The position numbers and the translations under genes are program-made. DNA of 64,000 nucleotides from an uncultured Candidatus Saccharibacteria bacterium (GTDB lineage: Bacteria; Patescibacteriota; Minisyncoccia; Portnoybacterales; UBA2143). The notes under the pieces are model-generated. The model had not been told where the DNA came from and made no database searches. It saw nothing but the letters and a program-made list of their open reading frames with translations. The stretch is taken from positions 43 through 64,042 of the forward strand of contig CAZVUG010000016.1 in the NCBI GenBank assembly GCA_964629675.1, in the 5' to 3' direction. Shown here piece after piece: positions 23,627-62,394 of the stretch (its first letter is position 1; every line of letters begins with the position of its first letter).

Positions 23627-24346
23627 ATGCAAGGTATTATTATGGAAATTAGGTCAGGAGCAGGAGGAGAAGAAGCATCTATTTTCGTAGGTGATCTTTT
23701 TCGAATGTACTCACGCTTTGCTGAAAAACAAAATTGGTCTATTAACCTTATCGAAAGCCACCCGAGCGGTCCCAAGGGATACCGCGAAATAACTTTTGAA
23801 ATTAAAGGAGAAGATGTTTATGATAAGCTTAAGCAAGAAGGCGGAGTACACCGAGTTCAAAGAGTGCCAGTTACAGAAAAAGCTGGCCGAGTTCATACTT
23901 CGACTGTTTCCGTTGCTGTTTTACCTAAAGCTAGCCAAACTGAAATTAAGATTAATCCGCAAGATATAAGGGTTGATACTCTTCGTGCCTCTGGTCCAGG
24001 AGGCCAGCATGTTAATCGCAGAGAATCAGCAATTAGAATCACCCATTTATCTACCGGCATTACTGTTTCTTGCCAAGAAGGCAGAAATCAGCAGCAAAAT
24101 AAGGAGAAAGCTATGGAAGTTCTAAGAGCTCGCCTTCTGCAAAGAAAGATATTAAAAGAAATGGCTGCCAGAGGCAATGAAAGAAGAGAACAAATTGGCG
24201 AAGCAATGCGCGCAGAAAAAATTCGCACTTATAATTTCCCCCAAAACAGAATTACAGATCATCGCCTTAATAAATCTTGGCATAACTTAGATAAAATAAT
24301 TGACGGCGATTTAAAACAAATTATCAAAACTTTTAAAAAATTATGA
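23627..24346 (+). CDS. prfA: Class-I peptide chain release factor, RF1-like, lacking the N-terminal domain 1
   Basis: GGQ motif (SGPGGQHVN) and tripeptide P-V-T (RVPVTEKAGRVHTS, RF1-type PxT). The protein starts at the equivalent of about residue 105 of full-length RF1. The gene begins 6 nt after the rpmE stop. Its TGA stop overlaps the trpS ATG (ATGA). Confidence 0.8.
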   Translation: MQGIIMEIRSGAGGEEASIFVGDLFRMYSRFAEKQNWSINLIESHPSGPKGYREITFEIKGEDVYDKLKQEGGVHRVQRVPVTEKAGRVHTSTVSVAVLPKASQTEIKINPQDIRVDTLRASGPGGQHVNRRESAIRITHLSTGITVSCQEGRNQQQNKEKAMEVLRARLLQRKILKEMAARGNERREQIGEAMRAEKIRTYNFPQNRITDHRLNKSWHNLDKIIDGDLKQIIKTFKKL

Positions 24347-56779: not shown

Positions 56780-57247
56780 TTAGTTTAAATACCAAATATA
56801 ATAATTAAGTATACTAGCAAAGCTTACCCAGATAAGATATGGAATTAGCAGATAAGCCGCCCAACTGCTTATTTTCCAGAATTTTACTATTAAAATAACA
56901 ATCAAGATCCACAGAATAATTATATTTAAGAAAGCTAAGCCGGGATTTTGCAAGCCAAAAAAAATTATTGACCAAAGAGCATTAAAAATTAAATGAGACC
57001 AGAAAAGCTTTAAGGCGCTTTTAGCTTTTTCTTGTTCAGCTGTCTTTTGCCAAATAAGGTAAGCGCTAATACCCATTAATAAATAGAGAGAAAGCCAAAC
57101 TGGGGCAAAAAGCCAATTAGGCGGACTAAAATTTGGTTTAGTTAGCGTGCTGTACCAAGCCGGAATAGCTGGCGCAGTAAAGAAAGAACCGATTACTCCG
57201 GCCAATTGAGGCATAATTAGAGAAATTACTAAACGTCTATAGTTCAT
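56780..57247 (-). CDS. tspO: TspO/MBR tryptophan-rich sensory protein
   Basis: Five TM segments with W-rich motifs (KPNFSPPNWLFAPVW and LFWSHLIFNALWS). ATG 57247 is chosen. An alternative start at 57268 would overlap the upstream gene. Confidence 0.8.
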   Translation of the reverse strand: MNYRRLVISLIMPQLAGVIGSFFTAPAIPAWYSTLTKPNFSPPNWLFAPVWLSLYLLMGISAYLIWQKTAEQEKAKSALKLFWSHLIFNALWSIIFFGLQNPGLAFLNIIILWILIVILIVKFWKISSWAAYLLIPYLIWVSFASILNYYIWYLN

Positions 57248-57249
57248 AT

Positions 57250-57579
57250 TTATAAAAAGCAACCGCACTTTTTATTTCTTAATATTATTTTTTGTTCAGC
57301 AATTGTATTAACAAATTTATCTTGCTTAGACTGGCCCTTAGCTTGTTTTTTGTCTAAAGCGGAACAGTGATTGAAACCGCGCCGGGACATTTCTTTAACT
57401 AATTTTTCATGCCTAGCATATAAAGCTTTTAATTTGCCTTGCCATCTTTTTGTTTCTGGATGGTAGCTAAAGCCTTTCTTGTTATTAACAATAACTGACC
57501 AAATAACGTGCAATTCGCCATGTTCGGCAATTAGATGCTTATTGCATAATTTTTTTGGATCAATATCCCAAATACGCAT
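57250..57579 (-). CDS. Pyrimidine-dimer DNA glycosylase (T4 endonuclease V/DenV-like family)
   Basis: MRIWDIDPKKLCNKHLIAEHGELH is the family N-terminus. Start set at ATG 57579. Confidence 0.75.
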   Translation of the reverse strand: MRIWDIDPKKLCNKHLIAEHGELHVIWSVIVNNKKGFSYHPETKRWQGKLKALYARHEKLVKEMSRRGFNHCSALDKKQAKGQSKQDKFVNTIAEQKIILRNKKCGCFL

Positions 57580-60477: not shown

Positions 60478-61267
60478 TCAATTTTTTCTCCTTATTTTTC
60501 TTCGGAAACCGGCGAAAGCTAATAAGCCCGATCCCAACAAAAACATTGTTGCTGGCTCAGGTACAGGAGCAGCCGAGCCTTCAATAACATCATTAGCGCA
60601 TGTCGCTGTACCCCAAACTAATCTCATTGACGCATCCAGATCATCTTCCCAGAATCCAGTTTCAATACTAATTCTATAGTCAGGAGAACCTCCAGGAAGA
60701 GAATTCCAAGTAACTTTCCCGCCTGGTAAACAGTCATAGCCATAATTATTACCTAAAGAACTTATTCTTACCGGAACGTCATGATTGTAACTATATGATC
60801 CAGGAGACGGATCAAAATCATCTGAAGTTAGATAGTTACCAACGGCATAGAGGCCTCCGGCAAAAAAAGTTCCATGATTTATTAAAGGAATTGCCCAAAG
60901 GTATTCATTCCCATAGAAATTCTCATACATGAAAAGATCGGCCGGCTCAGTTATCCAGCTTGCCGACAGTAACTCCTGATTGCGGATAGTCGGTATATAA
61001 ATCAAAGATGATATTGCCGCTGTTATGTCCTGGGGTAAAGTTCTTAATGTCAATGCCATAGCCTTCAAAACCTGTTCCAATCTGATCTCCAATTGGATCA
61101 TTTATGCTATATGCCATAACCGTTCCACTTATTAAAAAAGGAAATAATAAGATAGAAATAAATAGTATTTTTTTCATCAAAGACACTCCTTTCGCATAAG
61201 CCTTAGTTGTTTCTTCCATTATTATGGCAGCTAATAAGACAACTATAAATAATATCTTCTTTCCCAT
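60478..61267 (-). pseudogene. PEP-CTERM-anchored secreted protein, interrupted by a frameshift
   Basis: Two overlapping ORFs (61267-60947 and 61101-60478). The upstream ORF encodes signal peptide(s) and ends ...SGVTVGKLDN*. The downstream frame continues ...SWITEPADLF... and ends with VPEPATMFLLGSGLLAFAGFRRKIRRKN, i.e. PEP motif, TM segment and Arg-rich tail. A best start at ATG 61177 is preceded by AAGGAG. Confidence 0.7.
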
Positions 61268-61343
61268 TAGACACCCCCTTGCTGCTTTAATTAAATCTAA
61301 AAATCAGTTTTCACCTCCTTCCTTTTTTTAAAAGAACAATAAT

Positions 61344-61372
61344 ATCATAAATCTTTAAAATTATTCTGTCAA
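61344..61372 (-). promoter_or_regulatory. Promoter of the PEP-CTERM gene
   Basis: Minus strand: TTGACA (61372-67), 17 nt, TATGAT (61349-44). Confidence 0.55.
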
Positions 61373-61442
61373 TCTTTCAATTTTAAAAAGACCGTTTAGG
61401 ATTTCTCCATGGCTAATCGGTCTTAATAAAGCCAGTTTACTG

Positions 61443-61577
61443 TTAAATTCCTAAATACTTAGCTAAGTATTTATCCGGATCTGATCTCATTAAATTTGGA
61501 ATATATTTAGTATATTCCGAGACAGTTCCGTTTTGCAAAGAAACAGCGACAAGATTTAAGAAATGAGCAATAAACAT
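61443..61577 (-). CDS. 44-aa ORF downstream of the riboswitch-like leader
   Basis: MFIAHFLNLVAVSLQNGTVSEYTKYIPNLMRSDPDKYLAKYLGI*. AGGAGG lies 4 nt upstream of the ATG. Not in the ORF track (under 60 aa). Confidence 0.5.
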   Translation of the reverse strand: MFIAHFLNLVAVSLQNGTVSEYTKYIPNLMRSDPDKYLAKYLGI

Positions 61578-61610
61578 AATTCCTCCTTTTAAAATTTAGA
61601 AATTAAAGAA

Positions 61611-61800
61611 CAAAAAATCCCTCTTTGAGGGAATAAAAAAATATTAATACTCTCAAGCCTCGAAGAGATAATACTTAAAAGAAAATAATTAAGCGACCTG
61701 GCTTATTTCTTGCCCTTAGGCAAAAACATCACAGTTGCGGGTCAGCCGAGGATTCTCACCTCAGTTCGTTAATCATTATCTGCTTATTTTAAAATTACTT
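61611..61800 (-). promoter_or_regulatory. Cobalamin-riboswitch-like leader with terminator expression platform
   Basis: Minus-strand core GAACUGAGGUGAGAAUCCUCGGCUGACCCGCAACUGUGA closely parallels the conserved cobalamin aptamer core (GGUGnGAAUCC...GCnGnCCCGCnACUGUGA). Further elements: a closing helix AUUAACGA/UCGCUUAAU, a small hairpin UUGCC-UAAG-GGCAA, an AAGCCAGG B12-box-like element, and terminator UCCCUC-AAA-GAGGGA plus U6 (61632-61612). Confidence 0.6.
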
Positions 61801-61804
61801 TAAT

Positions 61805-61834
61805 AGTATATCACAATTCTATTAAATATTCCAA
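61805..61834 (-). promoter_or_regulatory. Promoter of the riboswitch transcript
   Basis: Minus strand: TTGGAA (61834-29), 18 nt, extended -10 TGaTATACT (61813-05). Confidence 0.5.
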
Positions 61835-61857
61835 AATAAGAATGTGGATAACAAATA

Positions 61858-62394
61858 TTAGTTTATTGATAAGAGCTCAATTTCAAAAATAAGGTTAGCA
61901 TTAGCCGGGATTTTACCATTTGCTGAGCCTTTTTCTCCATAAGCAAATTCAGCCGGAATATATAATCTGATTTTTTCTCCTAGCTTCATCCCAGCAACAC
62001 CAGTATCCCAACCTTTGATTACTTGGCCATTGCCAACAATAAAGGAAAAAGGAATTCCTCGATCTAAACTAGAGTCAAACTTCGTTCCATCTTCCAAAAA
62101 GCCTTCATAATCAACAGTTACTTTATCACCTTTCTCTGCTTTTTGCCCTGTGCTTTCTTGTAATATTTCTTTCTCTAAATTTTCAAATGTTACTTCTAAA
62201 AAAGATTCTTTTTTAGCTTGTTTTTCTTCTTCTGTCTGTTTAACTGTTTCTGTTGGTTCTTCAGAAGTTAATTCTTCTGAATTAACTGTATCGCCTATTT
62301 CTGTATTACCTTCGTTTTCTTGCTTTAAAGAAAGAAGATAGAAAACCAGGCTAGTTGCTATTAAAATAATGATTGCTTGAATAATTTTTTTCAT
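61858..62394 (-). CDS. FKBP-type peptidyl-prolyl cis-trans isomerase, membrane-anchored
   Basis: N-terminal TM segment, acidic linker, and an FKBP domain ([21 protein letters not shown]...[22 protein letters not shown]). Confidence 0.88.

What the first reader, a model, noticed from the sequence alone, without database searches (positions are those of the whole stretch)
61443..61840. Compact cobalamin-riboswitch-like leader controlling only a 44-codon ORF
Seen on the minus strand:
- A promoter (TTGGAA, 18 nt, TGaTATACT).
- A roughly 100-nt element whose core is GAACUGAGGUGAGAAUCCUCGGCUGACCCGCAACUGUGA. It is closed by helix AUUAACGA/UCGCUUAAU and contains a small UAAG-tetraloop hairpin and an AAGCCAGG box.
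- A GC-rich hairpin plus U6 terminator.
- AGGAGG and a 44-codon ORF (MFIAHFLNLVAVSLQNGTVSEYTKYIPNLMRSDPDKYLAKYLGI).
- Finally a weak hairpin and a separate consensus promoter for the next gene.

Established knowledge: the GGUGnGAAUCC...GCnGnCCCGCnACUGUGA string is the most conserved part of cobalamin riboswitch aptamers. Short variants lacking the large peripheral extension exist.

Inference: this is a B12-responsive transcriptional OFF switch whose only obvious cargo is a tiny protein of unknown function. No transporter, cob, metE or nrd gene follows.

Three explanations are possible. The small protein could be a new B12-related factor. The riboswitch could read through to the neighbouring surface-protein gene. 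Or this could be the fossil of a decayed B12-regulated operon.
Basis: partly seen in the sequence, partly recalled or inferred. Interest (0 to 1): 0.65.

Follow-up and report, generated by a model that had tools for sequence, protein, structure and literature searches.

The report
B12 riboswitch controlling a conserved microprotein
A genuine vitamin-B12-sensing RNA switch here controls nothing but a 44-residue protein, and the same switch-plus-tiny-gene unit recurs in two unrelated genome fragments, so the tiny protein is probably a real, previously undescribed B12-starvation factor.

Summary
On the minus strand, 61794-61639 matches Rfam RF01482 end to end. RF01482 is the compact AdoCbl riboswitch, class IIb. 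The score is 61.6 bits against a gathering score of 50.

After the aptamer come a terminator (61632-61612), AGGAGG, the 44-codon ORF (61577-61443) and a second terminator (61424-61385).

The new result concerns the ORF. A word-indexed search found nothing. An exhaustive HMMER scan of 1.84 billion proteins found two full-length relatives of 45 and 46 aa, 52-55% identical. Both relatives sit directly behind their own RF01482 riboswitch (75.8 and 55.2 bits). Each has the same terminator-RBS-ORF-terminator layout, but different flanking genes.

The ORF is under purifying selection:
- pN is 0.30-0.36 against pS of 0.68-0.86.
- Indels are in frame only.
- There are no stops in the ORF frame, against 2-7 in every other frame.
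- Codon usage is typical of this genome's genes.

A conserved antiterminator pairing explains an OFF switch: CUCUUCGAGG of P13/L13 pairs with CCUCAAAGAG of the terminator.

The unit is therefore a free-standing module in which B12 represses a microprotein. It is not a fossil, not a leader for the neighbouring surface-protein gene, and not an EutX-like ANTAR sponge. What the protein does remains unknown: it has no Pfam, PDB or fold match.

The parts
61805..61834 (-). Promoter-like site TTGGAA-18 nt-TATACT with a TG extension. The inferred transcription start is near 61798.
   Evidence: Consensus scan only (9 of 12 matches plus TG). Not tested further.
61639..61794 (-). Compact AdoCbl (class IIb type) cobalamin riboswitch aptamer. 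It comprises P1 (61781-61770 with 61691-61680), the P3 hairpin (61764-61747), the B12-box core (61745-61729), the P5 UAAG hairpin (61726-61707) and the AAGCCAGG box (61704-61697).
   Evidence: RF01482 at 61.6 bits against a gathering score of 50, model positions 1-149. In the alignment, 84% of cells are paired and 10 pairs carry compensatory changes; with the partners slid, 40-53% are paired.
61639..61676 (-). P13 hairpin with loop L13 (CGAGGCUU, 61662-61655). This is the switching element, and here it is itself followed by U7 (61641-61635).
   Evidence: Part of the RF01482 match. It forms in the MFE fold. CUCUUCGAGG is invariant in all five aligned CPR-type sequences (window, L055, L056, L052, L047).
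61612..61632 (-). Intrinsic terminator 1: UCCCUC-AAA-GAGGGA plus U6. Its 5' strand and loop (61630-61621, CCUCAAAGAG) are complementary to P13-5'/L13 (61667-61658, CUCUUCGAGG), which gives the antiterminator.
   Evidence: Terminator scan. The antiterminator pairs are formed in 88.9% of cells across five sequences. The L055 homologue adopts it as its MFE structure.
61582..61587 (-). Shine-Dalgarno sequence AGGAGG, 4 nt before the ATG.
   Evidence: Read directly from the sequence. GGAGG or GAGGUG lies at the equivalent place in L055 and L056.
61443..61577 (-). 44-codon gene for a microprotein of about 5 kDa, predicted to form three helices: MFIAHFLNLVAVSLQNGTVSEYTKYIPNLMRSDPDKYLAKYLGI.
   Evidence: Two full-length homologues share invariant YTKY and D.DKYL motifs. 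dN/dS is about 0.2-0.3. Only this frame is open, and its codon usage is gene-like. The AF2 model has three helices, pLDDT 70.8.
61385..61424 (-). Terminator 2: AAGACCG...CGGUCUU plus U5. It closes the monocistronic unit.
   Evidence: Fold of -14.9 kcal/mol, z = -3.0. It aligns with strong terminators after the ORF in L055 and L056.
61344..61372 (-). Boundary marker, not part of the unit: the near-consensus promoter TTGACA-17-TATGAT of the next gene (106 aa / PEP-CTERM pair).
   Evidence: 11 of 12 matches.

Best explanation
This is a self-contained, monocistronic unit of about 410 nt. From 5' to 3' it carries its own promoter, a compact class-IIb-type adenosylcobalamin riboswitch, an intrinsic terminator, a ribosome-binding site, a 44-codon gene and a second terminator.

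How the switch most likely works:
- When the corrinoid is bound, the P13 hairpin is held in place. By analogy with the family, its loop L13 docks on the aptamer. The downstream hairpin UCCCUC/GAGGGA plus U6 then forms and transcription stops at about 61612.
- When the corrinoid is scarce, the 5' strand of P13 plus L13 (CUCUUCGAGG) pairs with the terminator's 5' strand and loop (CCUCAAAGAG). The terminator cannot form, RNA polymerase reads on, and the microprotein is translated.

The microprotein is a real, conserved, soluble three-helix protein of about 5 kDa, made only under B12 scarcity. I infer that it acts in trans by binding a larger protein, as a B12-starvation effector. The most likely roles are promoting corrinoid capture or salvage, or adjusting the use of B12-dependent enzymes.

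What is shown: the riboswitch identity, the module architecture and its recurrence, coding selection on the ORF, and conserved terminator/antiterminator complementarity.

What is inferred: ligand specificity, the docking of L13, the direction of switching in vivo, and everything about the protein's biochemical role.

The confidence of 0.8 applies to the regulatory unit, that is, a real riboswitch acting as an OFF switch on a real microprotein gene. The specific guess about the protein's role deserves only about 0.35.
For: Riboswitch identity:
- RF01482 scores above its gathering score in the window (61.6 bits) and in both homologous loci (75.8 and 55.2 bits).
- P1 and P3 carry compensatory changes: 10 pairs, 84% of cells paired against 40-53% for slid controls.

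Expression platform:
- The antiterminator complementarity is kept in five sequences, with 88.9% of cells paired.
- It is the MFE structure in L055.
- In Paenibacillus loci, L13 CGAGGC is likewise complementary to GCCUCG inside the terminator.

The ORF is a real gene:
- The exhaustive HMMER search found exactly two other proteins. Both are full length (45 and 46 aa; E = 1.9e-4 and 5.3e-4).
- Each lies directly behind a riboswitch with the same terminator-RBS-ORF-terminator layout.
- The flanking genes differ. In the window they are FKBP and PEP-CTERM. In L055 they are a TyrRS C-terminus and a convergent ATP-grasp gene. In L056 the downstream gene is gamma-glutamyltranspeptidase.
- pS is 0.68-0.86 against pN 0.30-0.36, and indels are in frame only.
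- The ORF frame has 0 stops against 2-7 in each of the five other frames. An open frame arises by chance in 1.5-3% of shuffles per locus. Codon log-odds are +0.34 in frame against about -1.0 out of frame; real genes give 0.41 +/- 0.16.
- Nucleotide identity is 58-62% in the ORF, 71-75% in the aptamer and 41-51% in the upstream flank.
Against: - Only three family members are known, and two are on contigs of 1.4-1.7 kb, so phylogenetic breadth and context are thin.
- The peptide E-values alone are marginal (about 1e-4).
- For the window and L056, the P13-plus-terminator state is about 6-8 kcal/mol more stable than the antiterminator state. Read-through must therefore be kinetically controlled, or the switch is leaky-OFF by default.
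- The 4-bp complementarity between L5 and L13 is no better than chance (17-30% of shuffles reach it).
- No ligand binding, transcript end or translation has been observed.
- No B12-related gene lies in the 64-kb window.
- The protein has no Pfam, PDB-sequence or fold match, so its role is a guess.
Confidence: 0.8

Rival explanations
1. The unit is an EutX/Rli55-like riboswitch-controlled regulatory RNA that acts in trans as RNA. The open frame would be incidental, or secondary in a dual-function RNA.
For: - RF01482 is the family whose founding members control the trans-acting sRNA EutX/Rli55 rather than a gene (PMC5821096).
- This unit too is free-standing, about 400 nt, with its own promoter-like site and terminator.
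Against: - No tandem A..G.. hexaloop hairpins (ANTAR sites) occur in any of the three transcripts. The same scan finds them downstream of the Enterococcus and Paenibacillus riboswitches.
- The consensus RNA structure over the ORF is weak: -12.3 kcal/mol over 241 columns.
- The substitution pattern is that of a protein.
Confidence: 0.07
2. The riboswitch really governs the neighbouring PEP-CTERM surface-protein genes by read-through, and the small ORF is a passenger.
For: - The same strand carries the 106-aa and 150-aa PEP-CTERM genes about 180 nt downstream.
- The window's second terminator is an imperfect hairpin with only U5.
Against: - The second terminator is significantly structured (z = -3.0).
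- It is followed by an 11-of-12 consensus promoter for the next gene.
- In L055 the next gene is convergent, and in L056 it is an unrelated gamma-glutamyltranspeptidase. Both follow strong terminators.
Confidence: 0.05
3. The element is the fossil of a decayed B12-regulated operon, and the ORF is a meaningless remnant.
For: - In a Patescibacteria MAG (L047) and a related contig (L052), a very similar riboswitch and expression platform precedes a corrinoid-capture operon. That operon encodes a toroid/DUF4430 surface protein, a DUF4430 protein and a DUF6580 protein, and lies next to BtuR.
- No such genes occur in the window.
Against: - The ORF is conserved in length, frame, start and stop in three divergent loci, and is under purifying selection.
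- It has no similarity to the uptake proteins (hhalign probability 0.3%; tblastn finds nothing).
- The aptamer and the terminator/antiterminator pair remain intact.
Confidence: 0.05
4. The ORF is a cis-acting leader whose translation matters, for example for transcript stability or Rho access, but whose peptide sequence does not.
For: Small ORFs under B12 and Mg riboswitches act this way in Mycobacterium tuberculosis (PMC11260477 and PMC12810186).
Against: - No gene follows in the same transcription unit.
- Fifteen residues, including YTKY and D.DKYL, are invariant despite saturated synonymous sites.
Confidence: 0.03

Closest known systems
EutX (Enterococcus faecalis) / Rli55 (Listeria monocytogenes): AdoCbl riboswitch-controlled sRNA, Rfam RF01482, class IIb
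   Same: - Same riboswitch family by covariance-model score.
- Same conserved L13 UCGAGGC.
- Like EutX/Rli55, a free-standing unit that is not the leader of an operon.
- The same logic: AdoCbl causes early termination, so the downstream effector part is made only without B12 (PMC5821096).
   Different: - The effector part here is a conserved protein-coding gene, not ANTAR-binding hairpins.
- No eut genes are nearby.
- The conserved terminator is a separate hairpin after P13, not P13 itself.
- The B12 box reads GCAACUG, not GCCACUG.
BtuR - riboswitch - toroid/DUF4430 - DUF4430 - DUF6580 corrinoid-capture operon in Candidatus Buchananbacteria (L047) and in contig Ga0265297_10003082 (L052)
   Same: - Nearly the same aptamer 3' half, L13 (CUCUUCGAGGCU) and terminator/antiterminator design.
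- L052 also scores as RF01482, at 52.6 bits.
   Different: - There the switch is a conventional cis leader of B12-uptake genes.
- Here no uptake gene follows, and the cargo is a 44-aa protein.
uORFs under the Mycobacterium tuberculosis B12 riboswitches (PMC11260477)
   Same: A short ORF is the first thing translated downstream of a B12 riboswitch.
   Different: Those uORFs are coupled to a downstream main gene (metE, ppe2). Here the ORF is followed by a terminator, and the downstream genes are unrelated.
58-aa domain-less small proteins under class I c-di-GMP riboswitches in Clostridioides difficile (PMC11477304)
   Same: A precedent for a riboswitch whose regulated gene is a small protein of unknown function.
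   Different: A different ligand, riboswitch class and protein family, with no sequence relation.

Membership tests
Rfam RF01482 AdoCbl riboswitch (class IIb cobalamin riboswitch) | Covariance-model score at or above the curated gathering score, over the full model | tested here: met
   61.6 bits against 50, model positions 1-149, and the best family of its clan. The homologous loci score 75.8 and 55.2 bits.
Rfam RF01482 AdoCbl riboswitch (class IIb cobalamin riboswitch) | Helices P1, P3 and the P5 base can form and are supported by compensatory change | tested here: met
   84.4% of cells paired. Ten pairs changed on both sides (8 in P1, 2 in P3), and at most 1 of 500 shuffles reached that. 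Slid controls gave 40-53% paired. The alignment has only five sequences.
Rfam RF01482 AdoCbl riboswitch (class IIb cobalamin riboswitch) | Compact architecture without the large peripheral extension, plus a 3' P13 hairpin with loop UCGAGGC | tested here: met
   The 156-nt match includes P13. The loop reads CUUCGAGGCUU against the consensus CuUCGAGGcAA.
Rfam RF01482 AdoCbl riboswitch (class IIb cobalamin riboswitch) | L5-L13 kissing-loop complementarity | tested here: inconclusive
   Watson-Crick runs of 4 bp exist in the window, L055 and L056 (GCCU/AGGC, GUCC/GGAC, AGUC/GACU). However, 17-30% of shuffled loops do as well.
Rfam RF01482 AdoCbl riboswitch (class IIb cobalamin riboswitch) | Selective binding of adenosylcobalamin | not testable with these tools
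   The class property is taken from the literature (PMC11477304). It needs in-line probing or ITC.
EutX/Rli55-type riboswitch-controlled ANTAR sponge RNA | Tandem hexaloop (A..G..) hairpins for an ANTAR protein, downstream of the riboswitch terminator | tested here: not met
   None in the window, L055 or L056 transcripts. The same scan finds 1-3 tandem pairs in Enterococcus and Paenibacillus loci.
EutX/Rli55-type riboswitch-controlled ANTAR sponge RNA | Association with eut genes or an ANTAR regulator | tested here: not met
   No eut or ANTAR family appears among the genes of the 64-kb window. The rest of the genome was not available.
Conventional cis-acting B12 riboswitch leader | The downstream gene in the same transcript encodes corrinoid transport or synthesis, or a B12-independent isozyme | tested here: not met
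   The only downstream ORF is the 44-aa protein, followed by a terminator. The window holds no homologue of the BtuR, DUF4430 or DUF6580 proteins.
Riboswitch-controlled uORF / leader peptide | The short ORF overlaps or immediately precedes a main gene in the same operon | tested here: not met
   A terminator follows the ORF in all three loci. The downstream genes are unrelated or convergent.
Any described protein family (Pfam-A, PDB) | Significant profile or fold match of the 44-aa protein | tested here: not met
   Pfam gave 0 families at E <= 10 for all three peptides. The best PDB profile match had E = 0.2. The best Foldseek PDB match had E = 1.9.

The most novel reading that the evidence does not exclude
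The 44-46-aa proteins form a previously unrecognised family of B12-starvation effectors. Each is hard-wired to its own AdoCbl riboswitch as a portable two-part module. It would be a protein counterpart of the EutX/Rli55 sRNA, letting very small, B12-auxotrophic uncultivated bacteria broadcast corrinoid status in trans to targets elsewhere in the genome, such as a corrinoid transporter or a B12-dependent enzyme.
Probability: 0.35. Interest if true: 0.8.

Novelty: new variant of a known kind. Interest (0 to 1): 0.62.

Why it matters
B12 riboswitches are among the best-charted riboswitches, and their regulons are used to discover B12-related genes. A free-standing riboswitch whose only product is a conserved orphan microprotein would add a new kind of output: a trans-acting small protein, rather than a cis operon or an sRNA.

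It would also point to an unknown player in corrinoid economy in uncultivated, probably auxotrophic bacteria. The tight riboswitch-gene linkage gives a ready functional label ('made when B12 is scarce') to a protein that homology methods cannot place. The module is small enough to test directly in vitro.

There is a methodological lesson too. The family was invisible to word-indexed searches and appeared only in an exhaustive profile scan, so similar riboswitch-microprotein units may be systematically missed.

Tried and rejected
Searches for relatives of the peptide that found nothing new:
- A word-indexed search with the peptide alone returned only the peptide itself. The same search with the three-sequence profile returned only the three known members.
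- tblastn of the peptides against all held loci found no further copy.
- Searches of viral contigs, plasmids and phages found nothing.

Searches for related loci:
- The FKBP neighbour was used to look for syntenic relatives. Its best non-self hits are only about 50-60% identical over the FKBP domain and come from assorted phyla, so they give no synteny information.
- Cluster look-up gave no organism names.
- The single metagenome scan used a pattern requiring TTCGAGGC, GACCCGC and AAGCCAGG. This was too strict: L055 and L056 read TTCGAGGA, and L056 also differs at the other two motifs. It returned only two loci and could not be repeated.

Tests of the protein's identity:
- Pfam, PDB-sequence and Foldseek searches gave nothing significant. 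Weak Foldseek hits to the helical cap of a CarH-type cobalamin-binding domain (E = 5.7-8.7) are treated as noise.
- The idea that the peptide derives from the N-terminus of the toroid/DUF4430 B12-capture protein is rejected (hhalign probability 0.3%).
- A transmembrane role is rejected: the maximum Kyte-Doolittle 19-residue mean is 0.35-1.26.

Other ideas rejected:
- A mobile-element origin: no meaningful flanking repeats.

Literature searches that gave nothing:
- Sample accessions returned nothing useful.
- Searches for prior descriptions of B12-riboswitch microproteins found none.
- The Polaski 2017 paper on class II selectivity is not held.

Full report
**What is in the sequence**

All features lie on the minus strand. 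A sigma-70-like site, TTGGAA-18-TATACT with a TG extension, occupies 61834-61805.

An Rfam scan of the whole window at gathering thresholds finds one non-tRNA family. It is RF01482, 'AdoCbl riboswitch', at 61794-61639. The score is 61.6 bits against a gathering score of 50, E = 7e-9, and the match covers model positions 1-149 (repeated on 61300-61900).

RF01482 is the compact class IIb cobalamin riboswitch. Its founding members are tied to ethanolamine-utilisation loci in Enterococcus and Listeria, and are reported as AdoCbl-selective (PMC11477304).

This is P13 (61676-61639), with loop CUUCGAGGCUU against the model consensus CuUCGAGGcAA.

The remaining elements are all present:
- the UAAG hairpin (61726-61707);
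- the AAGCCAGG box (61704-61697);
- the terminator hairpin (61632-61618) plus U6;
- AGGAGG (61587-61582);
- the 44-codon ORF (61577-61443);
- a structured hairpin plus U5 (61424-61385; -14.9 kcal/mol, z = -3.0);
- the next gene's 11-of-12 consensus promoter (61372-61344).

**Is the small ORF real?**

A word-indexed search of 5.8 billion protein clusters returned only the peptide itself.

The exhaustive HMMER scan of 1.84 billion representatives returned two more proteins. Both align over their full length. P0127 is 46 aa (E = 1.9e-4, 52% identity) and P0128 is 45 aa (E = 5.3e-4, 55% identity). Fifteen columns are invariant, including YTKY and D.DKYL.

Their contigs are short and independent:
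- L055 is 1707 bp, from Logan run SRR22387952.
- L056 is 1357 bp, from NCBI assembly GCA_029935855.1.

In both, an RF01482 riboswitch lies immediately upstream of the ORF, scoring 75.8 and 55.2 bits. Each is followed by a short G+C-rich terminator with a U-run, a Shine-Dalgarno sequence, the ORF and a strong terminator. The three units align over their whole length.

The flanking genes differ:
- Window: an FKBP isomerase gene upstream and a PEP-CTERM gene pair downstream.
- L055: the 3' end of a tyrosyl-tRNA synthetase gene upstream and a convergent ATP-grasp gene downstream.
- L056: a gamma-glutamyltranspeptidase gene downstream.

Two marginal peptide hits that both sit behind the same rare RNA family cannot be coincidence.

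Codon-level tests agree that this is a coding gene:
- Synonymous sites are saturated (pS 0.68-0.86), while non-synonymous change is restrained (pN 0.30-0.36; dN/dS about 0.2-0.3 where it can be computed).
- Indels are whole codons.
- The ORF frame has no stop in any of the three loci, while each of the other five frames has 2-7.
- Only 1.5-3.2% of composition-matched shuffles stay open.
- The window ORF scores +0.34 log2-odds per codon with this genome's codon table, against about -1.0 out of frame. Windows of 44 codons from real genes give 0.41 +/- 0.16.
- Nucleotide identity is 71-75% in the aptamer, 58-62% in the ORF and 41-51% upstream of P1.

**How the switch works**

I aligned the window, L055 and L056 with two related riboswitches, L052 and L047. 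In that alignment P1, P3, the B12-box helix, the P5 base, P13 and the terminator are paired in 84.4% of cells. Ten pairs have changed on both sides, eight in P1 and two in P3. Shuffles almost never reach this, and sliding the partners drops pairing to 40-53%.

The key feature is a second, mutually exclusive pairing. The 5' strand of P13 plus loop L13 (CUCUUCGAGG, 61667-61658) is complementary to the terminator's 5' strand plus loop (CCUCAAAGAG, 61630-61621). These nine pairs are formed in 88.9% of cells across the five sequences.

In L055 the complementarity extends to CGAGGA/UCCUUG, and it is the minimum-free-energy structure. In Paenibacillus riboswitches of the same family, L13 CGAGGC is likewise complementary to GCCUCG inside the downstream terminator.

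The natural reading is an OFF switch. Ligand binding fixes P13 and L13, which leaves the terminator free to form. Without ligand, L13 and the P13 5' strand capture the terminator's 5' half.

Caveats on the mechanism:
- In the window and L056, the P13-plus-terminator state is 6-8 kcal/mol more stable than the antiterminator state. The decision must therefore be kinetic.
- The expected L5-L13 kissing complementarity (4 bp) is no better than chance.
- In the window only, P13 is itself followed by U7. This recalls EutX, where the last aptamer hairpin is the AdoCbl-stabilised terminator (PMC5821096).

**What it is not**

*Not an EutX/Rli55-type sponge.* A scan for tandem A..G.. hexaloop hairpins finds none in the three transcripts. 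The same scan finds them after the Enterococcus and Paenibacillus riboswitches. The ORF region also has no convincing conserved RNA structure.

*Not a leader for the neighbouring surface-protein genes.* A terminator and a separate promoter intervene. The other two loci have unrelated or convergent neighbours.

*Not a fossil.* Selection on the ORF argues against decay, and the peptide shows no similarity to B12-capture proteins.

**Relatives of the riboswitch**

A pattern scan of species-representative genomes returned mostly Paenibacillus, Enterococcus and Carnobacteriaceae loci, plus actinomycete, Obscuribacterales and Desulfitobacterium loci and one Candidatus Buchananbacteria MAG (Patescibacteria group).

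That locus (L047) and a metagenome contig (L052) share the window's L13, with a terminator of similar design. In both, the riboswitch sits between a BtuR/CobO adenosyltransferase gene and an operon. The operon encodes a prenyltransferase-toroid/DUF4430 surface protein, a second DUF4430 protein and a DUF6580 membrane protein. So the same riboswitch lineage is used there as an ordinary cis leader of corrinoid capture.

The window itself is contig MLSed_10000139, 66,519 nt and 33.7% G+C. It carries no B12-related gene. I found no close relative through its FKBP gene.

**The protein**

The product is about 5 kDa and rich in aromatic residues (14-27%). It has no predicted transmembrane segment, and its pI varies from 4.3 to 8.1 across the three members. 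AlphaFold2 with the three-sequence alignment gives three helices (residues 2-15, 21-32 and 34-42) at moderate confidence, pLDDT 70.8.

Pfam, PDB-sequence and Foldseek PDB searches give nothing significant. There is no conserved His or Cys that would suggest direct corrinoid ligation.

The regulation says the protein is made when AdoCbl is scarce. Most bacterial microproteins act by binding larger proteins. The best guess is therefore a trans-acting B12-starvation effector that touches corrinoid acquisition or the use of B12-dependent enzymes. This is inference only.

**Novelty**

The riboswitch is a new member of a known family. What I could not find described is the arrangement: a free-standing riboswitch whose sole, conserved cargo is an orphan microprotein. 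The held literature did not turn it up.

The nearest precedents are:
- EutX/Rli55, which has a free-standing riboswitch of the same family but an RNA effector;
- the uORFs under the Mycobacterium tuberculosis B12 riboswitches, which are coupled to a main gene;
- the 58-aa proteins under c-di-GMP riboswitches in Clostridioides difficile.

I rate it a new variant of a known kind, with moderate to high interest. The rating is limited by there being only three members and no functional data.

Noticed in passing
window 61267..60947 (-) and 60930..60478 (-); overlapping ORF 61101..60478: The 106-aa ORF has signal-peptide-like N-terminal segments, apparently duplicated, but no anchor. The 150-aa ORF has a PEP-CTERM anchor (PF07589) but no signal peptide. 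A 207-aa ORF in another frame bridges the two. This looks like one surface protein split by a frame change. The same split is called in two other assemblies (L001 and L054).
   Followed up: partly
L047 5000-5215 (-), Candidatus Buchananbacteria: The riboswitch-like element ahead of the toroid/DUF4430 - DUF4430 - DUF6580 operon keeps the B12 box, P13/L13 and the terminator. It lacks the 5' half of P3 and reaches no Rfam gathering score. It is either a degenerate or an atypical aptamer.
   Followed up: partly
window 61676-61635 (-): In the window only, not in L055 or L056, P13 is directly followed by U7. Two terminator-like hairpins therefore stand in tandem before the ORF.
   Followed up: partly
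L040 and L045 (Candidatus Obscuribacterales): These are RF01482 matches (66.6 and 67.5 bits). The 3' strand of P13 is AAGGAGG just before an ATG, which gives a translational rather than a transcriptional platform in the same family.
   Followed up: no
window 57268..56780 (-): A TspO/MBR gene, from a tetrapyrrole-binding membrane protein family, lies about 4 kb downstream on the same strand as the riboswitch unit. No link was shown.
   Followed up: no
window 23627..24346 (+): A release-factor-like protein with PCRF and RF-1 domains is only 239 aa, much shorter than canonical RF1 or RF2. It sits next to the L31 and tRNA-synthetase genes.
   Followed up: no
L003, L008, L013 (Paenibacillus); L005, L006, L024, L025, L028 (Enterococcus): Tandem A..G.. 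hexaloop hairpins follow the RF01482 riboswitch and its terminator. This is consistent with EutX-like ANTAR-sponge RNAs being widespread in Paenibacillus as well.
   Followed up: partly
L056 617-1355 (+): The gamma-glutamyltranspeptidase gene downstream of the module is broken into several short ORFs (46, 109 and 39 aa). It is either a pseudogene or an assembly error in this 1.4-kb contig.
   Followed up: no
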